Origin: Thermodesulfovibrionia bacterium
GTDB taxonomy: Bacteria; Nitrospirota; Thermodesulfovibrionia; UBA6902
Direction: 5' to 3'
DNA length: 24,559 nt
Assembly: GCA_964195875.1 (NCBI GenBank)
Contig: CAXMSH010000001.1
Location: 1-24,559 of the forward strand
Part shown: one piece after another, positions 8,053 to 12,589 of the stretch
How positions within the stretch are numbered: position 1 is the first letter of the stretch
Layout of the letters: each line of letters opens with the position of its first letter
Made by a program: the position numbers and the translations under genes
Notes under the pieces: model-generated
What the model was told of the DNA's origin: nothing
Databases searched by the model: none
The model's input: the letters and a program-made list of their open reading frames with translations, nothing else

Positions 8053-10851
8053 ATGTCAAAAGATTATAAAGAGACTCTGAATCTTCCAAAAACCGAATTC
8101 CCTATGAAGGCCAATCTCACCATGAAAGAGGTTGAGATGCTGAAATTCTGGGAAGAAGGCCGGATATATCAAAAGATGCAGGGGAGAAAAAGCTCGGGAA
8201 GCTATATACTGCATGACGGGCCTCCTTATGCCAACGGACATATTCATTTAGGGCATACACTCAATAAGGTCCTTAAGGACATAATCGTAAAGTATAAATC
8301 CATGAAGGGCTATTACGCTCCCTATGTCCCGGGCTGGGACTGTCACGGACTTCCGATTGAGCATCAGGTTGATAAGAAACTCGGCTCTAAAAAGGAAACA
8401 ACATCAATACTTGAGAAGAGAAAGTTGTGCAGGGAGTATGCAGGCAAGTTTCTGGATATACAGAGAGAGGAGTTCAAAAGACTCGGGGTCTTCGGTGACT
8501 GGAATAACCCATATATAACGATGTCCTTTAATTATGAGGCGTCGATAGTCAGGGAGCTTGGGAATTTTGTTGAAAAAGGGTATGTATACAAAGGGAAAAA
8601 ACCCGTACACTGGTGCCCGAACTGCGTAACGGCATTAGCAGAGGCAGAGGTAGAGTATGCCGATAAGAGATCACCTTCGATATACGTTAAATTCAGGGTA
8701 ATAAATCCTCAGGGCAAATTCAGTCCGGACCCGGTTAAAGGCACCTTTTTTGTTATCTGGACAACAACTCCATGGACAATTCCCGCTAACATGGCTTTGG
8801 CCCTGCATCCGCACTACTTGTACCGTCTTGTTAAGACACCCGACGGAGAGCTTATACTTGCGCAGGATCTGATAAAGGACTGTATGGAGAAGGCAGGTTA
8901 CAAGGAAGGTGAATACACAGTAACTGACGGGGCCTGGTCCGGAGCTGAACTGGAAGGGATTATATGCGTTCACCCCTGGATAGAGCGCGAGGTCAAGACA
9001 ATTCTTGGAGAGCATGTGACACTAGATCAGGGGACAGGTGTGGTTCATACCGCACCGGGCCATGGGGAAGAGGATTATGAGGTCGGTTTGAAGTACGGTC
9101 TTGACATATTTACACCAGTAAACCCCAAAGGGGTATTTACCCATGAGGTTAAGGATTTTGAGGGACAGTTTGTATATAAGGCCAACGAAGGTATAATCAA
9201 TCTGCTTAAGGATAGGGGGGCGCTTCTTGGCTCTCCTGATGAGACGACACACTCTTACCCTCACTGCTGGAGATGCAAAAAACCGGTCATCTTCAGGGCG
9301 ACCGAGCAGTGGTTCATTTCCGTTGAAGAAGGCAGCCTCAGGAAGAACGCGATAGAGGCTATAAAGGGGACAAAATGGATCCCTGAATGGGGCATGGAGA
9401 GAATGCGGGGTATGGTTGAAAAAAGGCCCGACTGGTGCATCTCAAGGCAGAGGGCATGGGGAGTGCCTATCACACTGTTTCAGTGTAAAGGATGCGGGGA
9501 ATTCATCACCGACAAGTCAGTTATAGACTCGGTTGTAAAAGAGGTGGAGAAATCAGGGGTTGATGTCTGGTTTGAAAAGCCGGCAAATGCTTTAATTCCA
9601 AGTGGTTATAAATGTTCTAAATGCAGTTCTACAGAGTTTGTTAAAGAGGCCGATATCCTTGATGTCTGGTTTGATTCAGGGGTTAGCCACGCCGCGGTAC
9701 TTGAAAAAGATGAGAGGCTGTCAAGCCCTGCCGACCTTTATCTTGAGGGCAGTGACCAGCACAGGGGTTGGTTTCAGTCATCGCTGCTCACCTCAGTAGC
9801 AACACGAGGGAGGGCGCCTTACAGGGCTGTGCTTACGCACGGTTTTGTGGTTGACGGCAAGGGCAAGAAGATGTCCAAGTCCATTGGAAATGTCATTTCA
9901 CCTCAGGAGATCACGAATAAGCACGGTGCGGAGATACTGAGGCTCTGGAGCTCATCAGCTGATTACAGAGAGGATATCAGGATCTCAAATGAGGTTATCG
10001 CTCGTCTCACAGAAGCTTACAGCAAAATAAGGAATACTTGCAGGTTCATGCTTGGCAATATAAATGATTTCGATTCATCCGGCGTATATAAGAAGGAAGA
10101 CCTTGCAGAGATAGACCTCCTGGCTATGAGTATGCTTCAGGGGCTTATTAAGAAGGTTGACAGGGCCTACGATACTTTTGCCTTTCACGAGGTATTTCAC
10201 TCAATTTATAACTTCTGCGTACTGGATATGAGCTCCTTTTACCTTGACATCTTAAAGGACCGTCTGTACACATTCCGAGCTGACTCGGATGAGAGGAGGT
10301 CAGCACAGTTTGTTCTGCATAACATATTGATTTCATTATCAAAAATGGTAGCACCGATACTTTCATTCACAGCTGAGGAGATCTGGGGACATCTTCCCGG
10401 AAGCGGTGAAGAGAGTGTCTTTTTGAGTGATTTTCCCGAGGTTAATGAAGAATATATCGATAATGATCTTGAAAAGAGATGGGAGGTCCTCATTAGGATT
10501 CGCAATGAGGTTAACAAGGCCCTTGAAATAAGGCGTCAGGAGAAGCTTATTGGGAACGCTCTTGAGGCAAAGGTGACGCTGTATCTTGATGACGCGTTAT
10601 ACATTTTAATTAAAGGATATTCAGACTATCTCCCGACCCTGTTCATAGTCTCTTCTGCTGAGGCCGTTAATAAGGATACCGCGGTTCCGGAAACGGCCTA
10701 TAAAAGCGAAGAGTTTGAAGGACTTGCGGTGCTTGTGGAGAGGGCTGAGGGTGAAAAATGCGGAAGGTGCTGGAACCGAAGCACGAGTGTTGGTGAATTT
10801 AAGGAACATCCCCAAATCTGTGAAAGATGCTGCAGGGTTGTAACATCTTGA
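8053..10851 (+). CDS. ileS: Isoleucine--tRNA ligase (type 1)
   Basis: 932 aa; LHDGPPYANGHIHLGH, PGWDCHGLPIE, WTTTPWT, DWCISRQR, EGSDQHRGWF, KMSKS, C-terminal CGRC..CERC zinc finger. Confidence 0.99.
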   Translation: MSKDYKETLNLPKTEFPMKANLTMKEVEMLKFWEEGRIYQKMQGRKSSGSYILHDGPPYANGHIHLGHTLNKVLKDIIVKYKSMKGYYAPYVPGWDCHGLPIEHQVDKKLGSKKETTSILEKRKLCREYAGKFLDIQREEFKRLGVFGDWNNPYITMSFNYEASIVRELGNFVEKGYVYKGKKPVHWCPNCVTALAEAEVEYADKRSPSIYVKFRVINPQGKFSPDPVKGTFFVIWTTTPWTIPANMALALHPHYLYRLVKTPDGELILAQDLIKDCMEKAGYKEGEYTVTDGAWSGAELEGIICVHPWIEREVKTILGEHVTLDQGTGVVHTAPGHGEEDYEVGLKYGLDIFTPVNPKGVFTHEVKDFEGQFVYKANEGIINLLKDRGALLGSPDETTHSYPHCWRCKKPVIFRATEQWFISVEEGSLRKNAIEAIKGTKWIPEWGMERMRGMVEKRPDWCISRQRAWGVPITLFQCKGCGEFITDKSVIDSVVKEVEKSGVDVWFEKPANALIPSGYKCSKCSSTEFVKEADILDVWFDSGVSHAAVLEKDERLSSPADLYLEGSDQHRGWFQSSLLTSVATRGRAPYRAVLTHGFVVDGKGKKMSKSIGNVISPQEITNKHGAEILRLWSSSADYREDIRISNEVIARLTEAYSKIRNTCRFMLGNINDFDSSGVYKKEDLAEIDLLAMSMLQGLIKKVDRAYDTFAFHEVFHSIYNFCVLDMSSFYLDILKDRLYTFRADSDERRSAQFVLHNILISLSKMVAPILSFTAEEIWGHLPGSGEESVFLSDFPEVNEEYIDNDLEKRWEVLIRIRNEVNKALEIRRQEKLIGNALEAKVTLYLDDALYILIKGYSDYLPTLFIVSSAEAVNKDTAVPETAYKSEEFEGLAVLVERAEGEKCGRCWNRSTSVGEFKEHPQICERCCRVVTS

Positions 10852-11315
10852 AAAAACAATCTTTTGTCCCGCTTATAGCCTCTCTGGTAGTAATCTCGGA
10901 TTTTATCACCAAGCAAATGATACTTAAATGGGTAAAGCCTTATGAGTCGATTGATATACTCCCTTTCATAAATATTGTGCATGTAAAAAACGAGGGGGCT
11001 GCATTCGGCATGTTTGCTGCCCTTGGCAACAGTGTATTTATAATAATATCTCTAATTGCTATAATAGTAATAATATCGTATCTTGCCAGGATTAAGGGAA
11101 GGTTAGAGATTTTCTCCATTTCACTAATTCTTGGCGGAGCAACAGGCAACCTGATTGACAGGCTTACAATCGGTAAAGTAGTTGATTTCGTTGACTTTTT
11201 TGTGGGCAAGTGGCACTGGCCGGCCTTTAATGTTGCGGATTCAGCTTTGACCGTCGGGATTATACTCTTCTTTCTGGCCAGTATCAGGGAAAGTAATAAA
11301 AAAGGATTCAAGTGA
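10848..11315 (+). CDS. lspA: Lipoprotein signal peptidase II
   Basis: NEGAAFG, GATGNLIDR, VVDF, WPAFNVADS motifs. The likely start is the TTG at 10848 overlapping the ileS stop (TTGA), not 10827. Confidence 0.96.
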   Translation: MKKQSFVPLIASLVVISDFITKQMILKWVKPYESIDILPFINIVHVKNEGAAFGMFAALGNSVFIIISLIAIIVIISYLARIKGRLEIFSISLILGGATGNLIDRLTIGKVVDFVDFFVGKWHWPAFNVADSALTVGIILFFLASIRESNKKGFK

Positions 11316-11398
11316 ACAAATTTAAGAAAATATCTAAATACCTGTACGTTGGAACCACCGCCTCCACCTTCGACCTGAAACCCTATCCTTTTTATTAA
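11312..11398 (+). CDS. Possible 28-aa ORF coupled to lspA, or the 5' part of the zinc-finger gene
   Basis: GTG overlaps the lspA TGA and AAAGGA lies upstream. Reads MNKFKKISKYLYVGTTASTFDLKPYPFY*. Removing one T from the T5 run near 11389-11393 fuses it in frame to the next ORF. Confidence 0.35.
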   Translation: MNKFKKISKYLYVGTTASTFDLKPYPFY

Positions 11399-11405
11399 GC
11401 AATTT

Positions 11406-11573
11406 ATGAAAAATTCTGAAGATACAACTTCTCTCCCTCTGAAGAAAGGTAAAAAAGGCCTTAAAGGGGCAATAGAGCGATTAAAACATGGTCCTCACAA
11501 ATGTTTCTTCTGTTCCGAGACCTTTGATGGAATAAAGACCCTGCTGTCACATTTGAAAGATCACTGCAGGTGA
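11406..11573 (+). CDS. Small basic protein with one classical C2H2 zinc finger
   Basis: MKNSEDTTSLPLKKGKKGLKGAIERLKHGPHKCFFCSETFDGIKTLLSHLKDHCR*; C33-x2-C36-x3-F40-x5-L46-x2-H49-x3-H53. It ends 14 bp before the tsaD stop. Not in the ORF track. Confidence 0.7.
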   Translation: MKNSEDTTSLPLKKGKKGLKGAIERLKHGPHKCFFCSETFDGIKTLLSHLKDHCR

Positions 11574-11587
11574 TAAGCCTCTTCAGG

Positions 11588-12589
11588 TCAGCCTTGAGCT
11601 GACCCAAGAGGCATGTAAGCCTTTGGATTTAAAGAATAATCTGATACAACTCCTTCTTTGAAGCGAAAATATCCCGCAGATGCTATCATGGCGGCATTGT
11701 CAGTGCACAGGCTTATAGAAGGCAGATAAACCTCAACCCCCTCTTCCTTTGCAATCTTCCTGATACCGCTTCTCAGGACACTGTTTGCTGAAACACCACC
11801 TGAAAGCATAATTCTGTTAATCTTCTCGGCCTTAGCCGCATCCAGGACCTTTCTGATAAGGATATCGACCACAGCCTTCTGAAAACTTGCCGCAATATCC
11901 TCTTTTTTTGATTCAGGAGATTTTTTTGTATGATTAAGTACAGCCGTCTTTAATCCGCTGAAACTGAAATCATGGCTTCCCGGAAGCTTTGCCCTTGGGA
12001 ACCTTATCGCGTCAGGATCACCCTCTGATGATATCTTATCTATTATAGGACCCCCGGGATAGCCAAAACCGAGCAGTTTTGCCACCTTATCAAACGCCTC
12101 ACCGGCCGCGTCATCCCTGGTCCTCCCAATTTCTGTATAAAGCCCGAACCCATCTACTCTATATATGCTTGTATGGCCACCGGATACGATAAGGGCCAGA
12201 AAAGGGTAATCCGGACTCGGCTCTTCAAGGTGTATCGAAGCCACGTGCCCTTCCAGGTGGTTTACAGCTATCATCGGTATCTGCTTTACATAAGACAGGG
12301 ATTTCGCAAAGCATACACCCACAAGGAGCGAACCAATCAGGCCAGGTCCGTGACTCACAGCTATTGCGGATATATCCTCAAGATTAGCCTTTGCGCCATT
12401 GAGCGCCTCATCAACTACAGGCCAAATCATCTCAATATGTCTGCGGGAAGCGAGTTCCGGTACAATGCCGCCATACTTATTATGGATCGCATCCTGGTTA
12501 GAGACTATGTTTGAGACGATCCTCGTTCCGTCTTCTACAACTGCGGCTGATGTATCATCGCATGAGGTGTCTATTCCCAGTACAAGCAT
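11588..12589 (-). CDS. tsaD: tRNA N6-adenosine threonylcarbamoyltransferase TsaD
   Basis: 333 aa; LGIDTSCDDT, GGIVPELASRRH, GPGLIGSL, NHLEGH, VSGGHT, DDAAGEAFDK, FSFSGLKT, CTDNAAMIA. Confidence 0.98.
   Translation of the reverse strand: MLVLGIDTSCDDTSAAVVEDGTRIVSNIVSNQDAIHNKYGGIVPELASRRHIEMIWPVVDEALNGAKANLEDISAIAVSHGPGLIGSLLVGVCFAKSLSYVKQIPMIAVNHLEGHVASIHLEEPSPDYPFLALIVSGGHTSIYRVDGFGLYTEIGRTRDDAAGEAFDKVAKLLGFGYPGGPIIDKISSEGDPDAIRFPRAKLPGSHDFSFSGLKTAVLNHTKKSPESKKEDIAASFQKAVVDILIRKVLDAAKAEKINRIMLSGGVSANSVLRSGIRKIAKEEGVEVYLPSISLCTDNAAMIASAGYFRFKEGVVSDYSLNPKAYMPLGSAQG

What the first reader, a model, noticed from the sequence alone, without database searches (positions are those of the whole stretch)
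11312..11573. Unannotated microprotein with an exact classical C2H2 zinc finger at the end of the ileS-lspA operon
Seen: HKCFFCSETFDGIKTLLSHLKDH fits C-x2-C-x3-F-x5-L-x2-H-x3-H at all six positions and follows a Lys-rich stretch (KKGKKGLKG). Established: this 12-residue C-to-H spacing is the TFIIIA/Kruppel type (PF00096), whereas the characterised bacterial Ros/MucR finger has 9. The ORF fills the gap between lspA and the convergent tsaD. A 28-aa ORF coupled to lspA precedes it, and one T less in a T5 run would give a single 86-aa protein. Inference: a nucleic-acid-binding or regulatory microprotein co-transcribed with housekeeping genes and possibly undescribed. The RBS before ATG 11406 is weak.
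Basis: partly seen in the sequence, partly recalled or inferred. Interest (0 to 1): 0.75.

Follow-up and report, generated by a model that had tools for sequence, protein, structure and literature searches.

The report
Conserved bacterial C2H2 zinc-finger microprotein
The 55-codon reading frame after lspA is a real, conserved gene for a tiny protein with one eukaryote-style C2H2 zinc finger; it is confined to one order of uncultured Thermodesulfovibrionia bacteria, always follows a lipoprotein-maturation gene, and its function is untested.

Summary
ORF 11406-11573 (+) encodes 55 aa with C-x2-C-x3-F-x5-L-x2-H-x3-H. The motif occurs once in the six-frame translation of this 1.58-Mb genome and in none of 5 shuffles.

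It is a real gene. Homologues of 50-64 aa occur in 38 of 49 genomes of the same family and in 4 of 12 genomes of two sister families. None was found in about 390 other Nitrospirota genomes. Every copy lies directly after lspA, or after lgt in two genomes, and usually converges on tsaD. dN/dS is 0.12 overall and about 0.05 in the finger. C33, C36, H49, H53 and a fifth residue, C54, are invariant in 40 sequences.

Profile, Pfam, PDB and fold searches return only classical C2H2 fingers, never Ros/MucR. All single-finger scores are below curated cut-offs. AlphaFold2 predicts a helix followed by a beta-beta-alpha finger.

That stretch is a genome-wide repeat copy whose core lies inverted in the sister genome.

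The most likely function is nucleic-acid binding by one finger plus a basic N-terminal arm, as in GAGA factor or SUPERMAN. This is inferred only. A role as a partner in lipoprotein maturation is the main rival. I rate it a new member of a known kind, of moderate interest.

The parts
11406..11573 (+). Coding sequence of the 55-aa zinc-finger microprotein (P0001), stop codon included
   Evidence: ORF and translation. Homologues in 43 of 64 genomes of the order. dN/dS 0.12 against the congeneric copy.
11502..11567 (+). Finger core, C33 to C54: C-x2-C-x12-H-x3-H-C. Predicted strands 30-32 and 39-41, helix 43-54.
   Evidence: C33, C36, H49, H53 and C54 invariant in 40 sequences. AF2 block pLDDT 73-78. 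Only C2H2 fingers matched in the PDB.
11442..11501 (+). Basic arm K13-K32 (net charge +7), with a predicted helix at residues 20-27 before the finger
   Evidence: The 20 residues before CxxC carry net +1 to +7 in all 22 members of A1. Helix in both AF2 models.
10827..11315 (+). lspA (signal peptidase II), the upstream gene on the same strand
   Evidence: Pfam Peptidase_A8 E 2.8e-37. lspA precedes the finger gene in 62 fetched loci plus 17 of 18 metagenome loci (the 18th is cut before it).
8053..10851 (+). ileS (isoleucyl-tRNA synthetase). Its end overlaps the listed lspA ORF.
   Evidence: ORF list. Conserved order ileS-lspA-finger gene.
11588..12589 (-). tsaD, convergent; its stop codon lies 14 nt from the finger gene's stop
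   Evidence: Pfam TsaD E 1.9e-96. Synteny.
11577..11612 (.). Strong hairpin just after the finger gene's stop, overlapping the last codons of tsaD. Possible terminator for the convergent transcripts; there is no T tract.
   Evidence: MFE -28.6 kcal/mol, z -3.67, 1 of 200 shuffles folds as well. Sequence conserved in G001.
11296..11398 (.). lspA-to-finger-gene spacer: a copy of a genome-wide repeat bounded by inverted arms (TAATAAAAAAGGAT / ATCCTTTTTATTA). It contains the spurious 28-aa ORF 11312-11398.
   Evidence: AAGGATTCAAGTG occurs 13 times on 12 contigs. The 51-nt core is 92% identical but in the opposite orientation in G001. The flanks do not align.

Best explanation
Window 11406-11573 encodes a translated 55-aa cytoplasmic microprotein. 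It is a lineage-specific core gene of one order of Thermodesulfovibrionia (Nitrospirota). The protein is a single classical beta-beta-alpha zinc finger (C33, C36, H49, and H53 or C54 holding one Zn), preceded by a basic, partly helical arm. The gene is the last one of the ileS-lspA transcription unit (ileS-lspA-lgt in one sister family). The most likely mechanism is that the Zn-folded finger and the basic arm together bind a nucleic acid. This would resemble the single-finger DNA-binding domains of GAGA factor and SUPERMAN, or the archaeal virus protein AFV1p06, and would make the protein a small regulator or nucleoid/RNA-associated factor. Shown here: the gene is real, conserved and under purifying selection; it is C2H2-type by sequence and by predicted fold; its synteny is fixed. 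Inferred only: zinc binding, co-transcription, and the ligand. My estimates: real gene 0.93, zinc finger fold 0.8, nucleic-acid binding about 0.45.
For: Homologues are found in 21 of 24 family genomes with one protein and in 38 of 49 with a profile. They are found in 0 of about 390 other Nitrospirota genomes. Gene order ileS-lspA-finger gene, convergent tsaD, holds in all but the two lgt genomes. The lspA-to-start gap has a median of 51 nt, and 5 cases overlap or abut lspA. dN/dS is 0.12, and about 0.05 in the finger. Five residues are invariant in 40 sequences, and the start (M1) is conserved in at least 90%. Alignment with the sister genome breaks down a few bases upstream of the ATG. A family profile retrieves eukaryotic multi-finger proteins (up to 38 stretches) and, in the PDB, only classical C2H2 proteins. 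zf-C2H2_4 is hit by 20 of 22 members. AF2 gives helix 20-27 plus beta-beta-alpha. Foldseek and VIA-align list almost only C2H2 fingers, including the GAGA factor-DNA complex and SUPERMAN. The arm is basic in all members. K51, between the two His, is nearly invariant; in DNA-binding fingers this position is a usual phosphate contact (established knowledge). AFV1p06, a small prokaryotic-world C2H2 protein, binds dsDNA at micromolar levels (PMC3541406).
Against: There is no experimental evidence of translation, zinc binding or any ligand. Every single-finger score is below the curated cut-off (18-24.7 bits against 27). Fold matches are weak (Foldseek E at least 0.67, Z at most 3.5), as expected for about 28 residues. 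Mean pLDDT is only 62-64. The canonical base-contact positions of the helix are small residues (G at -1; S/K/A at +2; A/T/E at +3; S/A at +6). Position +1 is a conserved hydrophobic residue, which suits a protein interface or packing of the N-terminal helix better than base reading. The window's own copy has no Shine-Dalgarno sequence. A repeat element lies between lspA and the gene.
Confidence: 0.5

Rival explanations
1. The microprotein is an accessory or regulatory partner of the lipoprotein-maturation machinery (LspA/Lgt) or of their substrates. The finger would then be a protein- or lipid-binding module rather than a nucleic-acid reader.
For: The gene always follows a lipoprotein-maturation gene. 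In two genomes of a sister family that gene is lgt, with start-stop overlaps of 26 and 8 nt. In G026 it stays with lgt although lspA, ileS and tsaD are not nearby. Several copies overlap or abut the lspA stop. The base-contact positions are small residues and a hydrophobic residue is conserved at helix +1. C2H2 fingers that bind proteins (EEA1-Rab5, UBZ) also appear among the fold matches.
Against: LspA and Lgt are near-universal, yet the microprotein is confined to one order. The lgt arrangement is seen in only 2 genomes and could be one insertion followed by one translocation of an operon tail. No cytoplasmic partner of LspA or Lgt turned up in the literature search. The ileS-lspA linkage itself is widespread and unexplained, so adjacency is weak evidence.
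Confidence: 0.25
2. It binds RNA, for example tRNA, in connection with its neighbours IleRS and TsaD, which both act on tRNA.
For: The gene sits between ileS and tsaD in nearly all loci. Weak hits to the dsRNA-binding C2H2 families zf-met (4 members) and zf-C2H2_jaz (3 members). The arm is basic.
Against: In G026 the gene has moved away from ileS and tsaD and stayed with lgt. The family hits are weak and are shared with the generic C2H2 families.
Confidence: 0.12
3. The ORF is not translated. The conservation reflects a 3' UTR, a terminator or an RNA element between convergent genes, and the motif is chance.
For: It is a short ORF with no Shine-Dalgarno sequence in this genome and no expression data. 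A strong hairpin lies just downstream.
Against: All 50 distinct homologues keep an open frame of 50-64 codons, although length differences are confined to the N-terminal part. Synonymous changes far outnumber replacements (pS 0.42 against pN 0.07). Cys and His codons are invariant. About half of the homologues have an SD-like run. There is no Rfam match. The motif is absent from the shuffles.
Confidence: 0.05
4. The true product is an 86-aa protein made by joining the 28-aa ORF (11312-11398) to the finger ORF, either through a sequencing error in the T5 run or through programmed frameshifting.
For: Removing one T does join the two frames. The GTG at 11312 overlaps the lspA stop.
Against: The 28-aa ORF lies inside a repeat copy whose core is inverted in the sister genome G001. 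In G001 a stop sits two codons before the ATG. No other genome has a similar peptide. The conserved N-terminus begins MK at the ATG in at least 90% of 40 sequences.
Confidence: 0.02

Closest known systems
Classical (TFIIIA/Krueppel-type) C2H2 zinc finger; Pfam PF00096, PF13894, PF13912
   Same: C-x2-C-x12-H-x3(4)-H spacing, hydrophobic core positions, predicted beta-beta-alpha fold. The family profile retrieves eukaryotic poly-finger proteins and only C2H2 chains in the PDB.
   Different: Bacterial, a single finger, and 50-64 aa in total. An extra invariant Cys directly follows the last His. The base-contact positions are small residues. Scores fall below the Pfam gathering cut-offs.
Ros/MucR prokaryotic zinc finger
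   Same: A bacterial protein with Cys2-His2-type ligands and a spare fifth ligand candidate next to the last His (HH in Ros, HC here) (PMC9779718).
   Different: [quoted passage not shown] No Ros/MucR hit appeared in the Pfam or PDB searches.
Single-finger DNA-binding domains with basic flanks: GAGA factor (1YUI/1YUJ) and SUPERMAN (1NJQ)
   Same: One C2H2 finger plus an N-terminal basic region in about 55-60 residues. Both appear among the fold or sequence matches. Most family members carry ALG[SA]H, which recalls the plant QALGGH motif.
   Different: These are eukaryotic domains of larger proteins. The Gln of QALGGH is absent, and the window's copy reads TLLSH. DNA binding was not tested here.
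AFV1p06 and other small archaeal or archaeal-virus C2H2 proteins
   Same: A small prokaryotic-world protein built around one classical finger with extensions. AFV1p06 binds dsDNA (PMC3541406). The nearest ESM Atlas clusters are single-C2H2 proteins of 43-74 aa, several of them archaeal.
   Different: AFV1p06 lacks the fourth His. That study found no bacterial homologues. No direct homology to this family was shown here.
Aprataxin-type C2HE finger (PF16278)
   Same: This is the best single Pfam E-value (6.8e-4), and the match covers the helix plus finger, residues 20-54.
   Different: The score is below the cut-off (20.4 against 30.1 bits). There is no HIT domain. The last ligand here is His or Cys, not Glu.
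One-domain zinc-finger micro-proteins of Haloferax volcanii (C(P)XCG type)
   Same: Proteins under 70 aa that consist of one zinc-binding domain (PMC6562870).
   Different: [quoted passage not shown] Here only the first pair is CPxC and the second pair is His.

Membership tests
Classical C2H2 zinc finger (PF00096 / PF13894 clan) | Ligand spacing C-x2-4-C-x12-H-x3-5-H | tested here: met
   C-x2-C-x12-H-x3-H in P0001. All 40 aligned homologues have x3 or x4 between the two His.
Classical C2H2 zinc finger (PF00096 / PF13894 clan) | Conserved hydrophobic core residues (aromatic or aliphatic four residues after Cys2; Leu-like three residues before His1) | tested here: met
   F40 column is F/L/I/V/Y in all but one of 40 sequences. 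L46 column is L/F/M, with Y in one member.
Classical C2H2 zinc finger (PF00096 / PF13894 clan) | Score above the curated Pfam gathering cut-off | tested here: not met
   18.0 bits for P0001, and at most 24.7 bits in any genome of the order, against a cut-off of 27. 20 of 22 members match at E < 0.01. One lone finger rarely reaches the whole-protein cut-off.
Classical C2H2 zinc finger (PF00096 / PF13894 clan) | Beta-beta-alpha fold | tested here: inconclusive
   AF2 predicts E30-32, E39-41 and H43-54 with pLDDT 73-78. The top Foldseek and VIA rows are C2H2 fingers (rmsd 0.7-1.0 A over 22-26 residues), but E is at least 0.67 and Z at most 3.5.
Classical C2H2 zinc finger (PF00096 / PF13894 clan) | Tetrahedral Zn(II) coordination | not testable with these tools
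   Needs metal analysis or spectroscopy.
Ros/MucR prokaryotic zinc finger | 9-residue spacer between Cys2 and His1 (C-x2-C-x9-H-x3-H-H), as described in PMC9779718 | tested here: not met
   The spacer is 12 in all 40 sequences (motif).
Ros/MucR prokaryotic zinc finger | [quoted passage not shown] | tested here: not met
   The proteins are 50-64 aa. No Ros/MucR family or chain appears among the Pfam or PDB hits.
Plant Q-type C2H2 (QALGGH) | Invariant QALGGH in the recognition helix | tested here: not met
   The family consensus is [SKA]A[LFM]G[SA]H and P0001 reads KTLLSH; there is no Gln. The resemblance is partial only.
CCHC variant of the classical finger (Cys as last ligand) | Fourth ligand is Cys rather than His | tested here: inconclusive
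   Both H53 and C54 are invariant, and they shift together in the H-x4-H-C variants. Sequence cannot tell which one binds zinc.
Aprataxin-type C2HE finger (PF16278) | Score above the cut-off, and attachment to a HIT domain | tested here: not met
   20.4 bits against 30.1. The protein stands alone at 55 aa.
C(P)XCG zinc-finger micro-proteins | Two C(P)XCG motifs (C4 coordination) | tested here: not met
   There is only one CxxC pair (CPxC in 90% of members). The second pair is H-x3-H.

The most novel reading that the evidence does not exclude
This is the first bacterial family of stand-alone, classical 12-spacer C2H2 (CCHHC) finger microproteins. It is vertically inherited as a core gene of one Thermodesulfovibrionia order. 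In the most novel reading it acts as a cytoplasmic factor tied to lipoprotein maturation (LspA/Lgt), or as a new type of minimal bacterial regulator. That would give a bacterial reference point, besides Ros/MucR, for the origin of the eukaryotic zinc finger.
Probability: 0.2. Interest if true: 0.7.

Novelty: new member of a known kind. Interest (0 to 1): 0.45.

Why it matters
Classical C2H2 fingers are treated as a eukaryotic hallmark. One paper describes them as "practically absent in bacteria" (PMC3541406), and the bacterial literature centres on the structurally different Ros/MucR domain (PMC9779718). Here a minimal one-finger protein is a conserved, selected, syntenic gene across a bacterial order. 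It offers a simple natural model for what a lone classical finger can do, and a data point for where the fold arose. Its fixed place behind lspA or lgt raises a testable link to lipoprotein maturation. The limits are that the fold itself is ordinary, relatives are already predicted as hypothetical proteins, a second C2H2 protein family exists in the same order, and the hosts are uncultured.

Tried and rejected
1. The 28-aa ORF and the 86-aa fusion are rejected.
2. A known RNA family in 11200-11700: none at E up to 1.
3. NCBIfam: no family for three members, apart from a chance L37ae hit at E 0.055.
4. The word-index protein search found only 2 relatives; the exhaustive profile search was needed.
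5. The search for related loci with the full alignment failed for lack of a conserved stretch; sub-alignments worked.
The contexts of the most divergent members (P0099, P0108, P0047) were therefore not seen.
7. Lipoprotein signal peptide: some homologues have [ST][AS]C[DE] near the N-terminus, but no hydrophobic segment precedes it and the window's copy has no Cys there. Rejected as a lipobox.
A weak TCGACC-17-TATTAA that would start a leaderless mRNA at the ATG was seen by eye but is not conserved in G001, so it was not pursued.
9. One JGI label on a relative, 'transcription elongation factor Elf1', was judged an automatic mislabel.
10. Literature searches for a zinc-finger protein linked to lspA or lgt, or for C2H2 fingers in Nitrospirae, found nothing relevant.
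11. My computed distances from the finger gene's stop to the tsaD stop are unreliable (negative values from a script flaw). Only the window's own 14 nt is used.

Full report
**1. Observation**

The window holds an ORF at 11406-11573 (+) that encodes 55 residues (P0001). Residues 33-53 read C-FF-C-SET-F-DGIKT-L-LS-H-LKD-H. This matches C-x2-C-x3-F-x5-L-x2-H-x3-H at all six positions. Cys54 follows directly, and a basic stretch (K13-K32, net +7) comes before.

Upstream on the same strand are ileS (8053-10851) and lspA (10827-11315; Peptidase_A8 E 2.8e-37). Downstream, convergent, is tsaD (11588-12589; TsaD E 1.9e-96). The strict motif occurs exactly once in the six-frame translation of the 1.58-Mb, 81%-complete genome, and in none of 5 shuffled genomes.

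**2. It is a gene**

Distribution:
- A search with the protein alone matched 21 of 24 other genomes of the same family, mostly different genera. Most matches lay in open frames of about 57-87 codons (one of 120).
- A profile of 22 homologues matched 38 of 49 genomes of that family, 2 of 7 and 2 of 5 genomes in two sister families, and 0 of 1 in each of two others.
- In a 401-genome sample of the phylum, it matched none of about 390 genomes outside these families. One further hit, at E 4e-4 in a 178-codon frame, was not examined.
- Record titles place the carriers among Thermodesulfovibrionia (Nitrospirota) MAGs.

Synteny:
- Among fetched loci carrying C-x2-C-x12-H-x3/4-H-C, 62 show ileS > lspA > finger gene > < tsaD.
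- Two further loci are truncated versions of that order.
- Four loci (two genomes, each fetched twice) show lgt > finger gene.
- 15 of 18 independent metagenome contigs show the full order, and the other three are cut versions of it.

Sequence and selection:
- I found 50 distinct protein sequences of 50-64 aa.
- Against the congeneric genome, dS is 0.62 and dN is 0.08 (ratio 0.12). In the finger, 8 synonymous changes stand against 3 replacements.
- In 40 aligned sequences C33, C36, H49, H53 and C54 are invariant. M1, P34, E38, G42 and K51 are at least 90% conserved.
- Alignment with the sister genome holds from a few bases before the ATG through to tsaD and breaks down just upstream. ATG 11406 is therefore the start.
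- The window's copy and its congener lack a Shine-Dalgarno run, but about half of the others have one.
- There is no Rfam match.

**3. What kind of domain**

- Pfam gives only sub-threshold hits: zf-C2HE E 6.8e-4 and zf-C2H2_4 E 4.5e-3 for P0001. zf-C2H2_4 is hit by 20 of 22 members, zf-C2H2_6 by 9 and zf-C2H2 by 9. The maximum is 24.7 bits against a cut-off of 27.
- The family profile, run against 1.84 billion representatives, finds about 25 full-length small relatives. It also finds hundreds of long proteins with many matched stretches (up to 38), that is, poly-finger proteins.
- Against PDB sequences, 31 of the 32 matches are classical C2H2 zinc-finger chains (Miz-1, HIC2, ZBTB7A, CTCF, SUPERMAN, Helios and others); the other is TFIIE-alpha. 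None is Ros.
- AlphaFold2 with 22 or 40 sequences gives the same picture: a disordered N-terminus, helix 20-27, strands 30-32 and 39-41, and helix 43-54. Mean pLDDT is 62-64, and 73-78 in the finger.
- Foldseek and the independent VIA-align search list almost only C2H2 fingers. These include the GAGA factor-DNA complex, SUPERMAN, aprataxin, and protein-binding fingers such as EEA1 and UBZ. The scores are weak (E at least 0.67, Z at most 3.5), as expected for about 28 residues.
- The nearest ESM Atlas clusters are single-C2H2 proteins of 43-74 aa, several of them archaeal.

The 12-residue spacer and the size exclude Ros/MucR, which has a 9-residue spacer, a 58-residue domain and about 142 aa (PMC9779718).

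**4. The upstream ORF**

The 28-aa ORF (11312-11398) exists, and removing one T would indeed fuse the frames. But the lspA-to-gene spacer is a copy of a repeat found across this genome. AAGGATTCAAGTG occurs 13 times on 12 contigs, often after runs of GGNTTCNAGG-like octamers. The spacer is bounded by inverted arms.

Its 51-nt core (11307-11357) is 92% identical in the sister genome G001 but lies in the opposite orientation there, inside a 261-nt spacer. In G001 a stop lies two codons before the ATG. No other genome has a similar peptide. The 28-aa ORF and the 86-aa version are rejected.

**5. Context and mechanism**

The gap from the lspA stop to the start of the finger gene has a median of 51 nt (range -4 to 278). 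Four copies overlap the lspA stop or start right at it, and a fifth starts 3 nt after it.

In two genomes of a sister family the upstream gene is lgt (LGT E 5e-75 and 9e-72), with overlaps of 8 and 26 nt. One genome reads ileS-lspA-lgt-finger gene. In the other, lgt and the finger gene sit before an ABC transporter, with no lspA, ileS or tsaD nearby. The gene therefore behaves as the tail of the upstream operon, and it is tied to lipoprotein-maturation genes in two arrangements. This genome's own lgt is on another contig.

A strong hairpin (11577-11612; -28.6 kcal/mol, z -3.7) follows the stop codon and overlaps the end of tsaD.

Function is inferred, not shown. For nucleic-acid binding:
- the fold family;
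- the conserved basic arm;
- the conserved Lys between the two His;
- the precedents of GAGA factor, SUPERMAN and AFV1p06.

Against canonical base reading, and for a protein interface:
- small residues at helix positions -1, +2, +3 and +6;
- a conserved hydrophobic residue at +1.

I put nucleic-acid binding at about 0.45, a lipoprotein-pathway partner at about 0.25, and an RNA/tRNA link at about 0.12.

The invariant HC pair leaves open whether the fourth ligand is H53 or C54. Ros has a comparable spare ligand (HH).

**6. Novelty**

Relatives are already predicted in NCBI and JGI records as 'hypothetical protein'. No paper found describes them. The fold is ordinary, and small one-finger proteins are known from archaea and their viruses.

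What is new is a classical-type, single-finger microprotein family that is a conserved, syntenic core gene of a bacterial order, with a CCHHC signature. I classify it as a new member of a known kind, with interest 0.45.

The scan's earlier notes on this window concern hairpin repeats, not this gene.

Noticed in passing
window 11296-11398; L002 1276-1547: The lspA-to-finger-gene spacer is a copy of a genome-wide repeat. AAGGATTCAAGTG occurs 13 times on 12 contigs, often preceded by tandem GGNTTCNAGG-like octamers. It is bounded by inverted arms. Its 51-nt core is 92% identical but inverted in the congeneric genome, which has a longer (261-nt) spacer. It could be an invertible or hairpin-type mobile element.
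   Followed up: partly
L057 1051-1668 (-) (G012:C123); also G005, G006, G013, G024, G036, G432, G023, G002, G433: A second, unrelated-looking family of about 190-250-aa proteins with two or three C2H2-like fingers (C-x2-C-x12-H-x4-H) occurs in at least 10 genomes of the same order. It was not found in this 81%-complete genome.
   Followed up: partly
window 11577-11612: A strong hairpin (-28.6 kcal/mol, z -3.7) lies between the convergent genes and overlaps the last codons of tsaD. It is conserved in the sister genome and has no T tract.
   Followed up: partly
Alignment A4, N-terminal third of the homologues: About 16 of 40 homologues carry a Cys near the N-terminus, often as [ST][AS]C[DE][IL]K. 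This loosely recalls a lipobox but has no hydrophobic segment before it, and it is absent from the window's copy.
   Followed up: no
L008 696-1632; L054 1498-2413: In two genomes of a sister family, lgt is inserted between lspA and the finger gene, or travels with the finger gene away from lspA. The stop-start overlaps are 26 and 8 nt.
   Followed up: yes
L038-L046 (Pyrinomonadaceae / Acidobacteriota contigs): The pattern scan returned nine acidobacterial loci with a 22-residue match (about 60% identity to residues 22-44) but without the full finger motif. They are probably unrelated CPxC-containing proteins.
   Followed up: no
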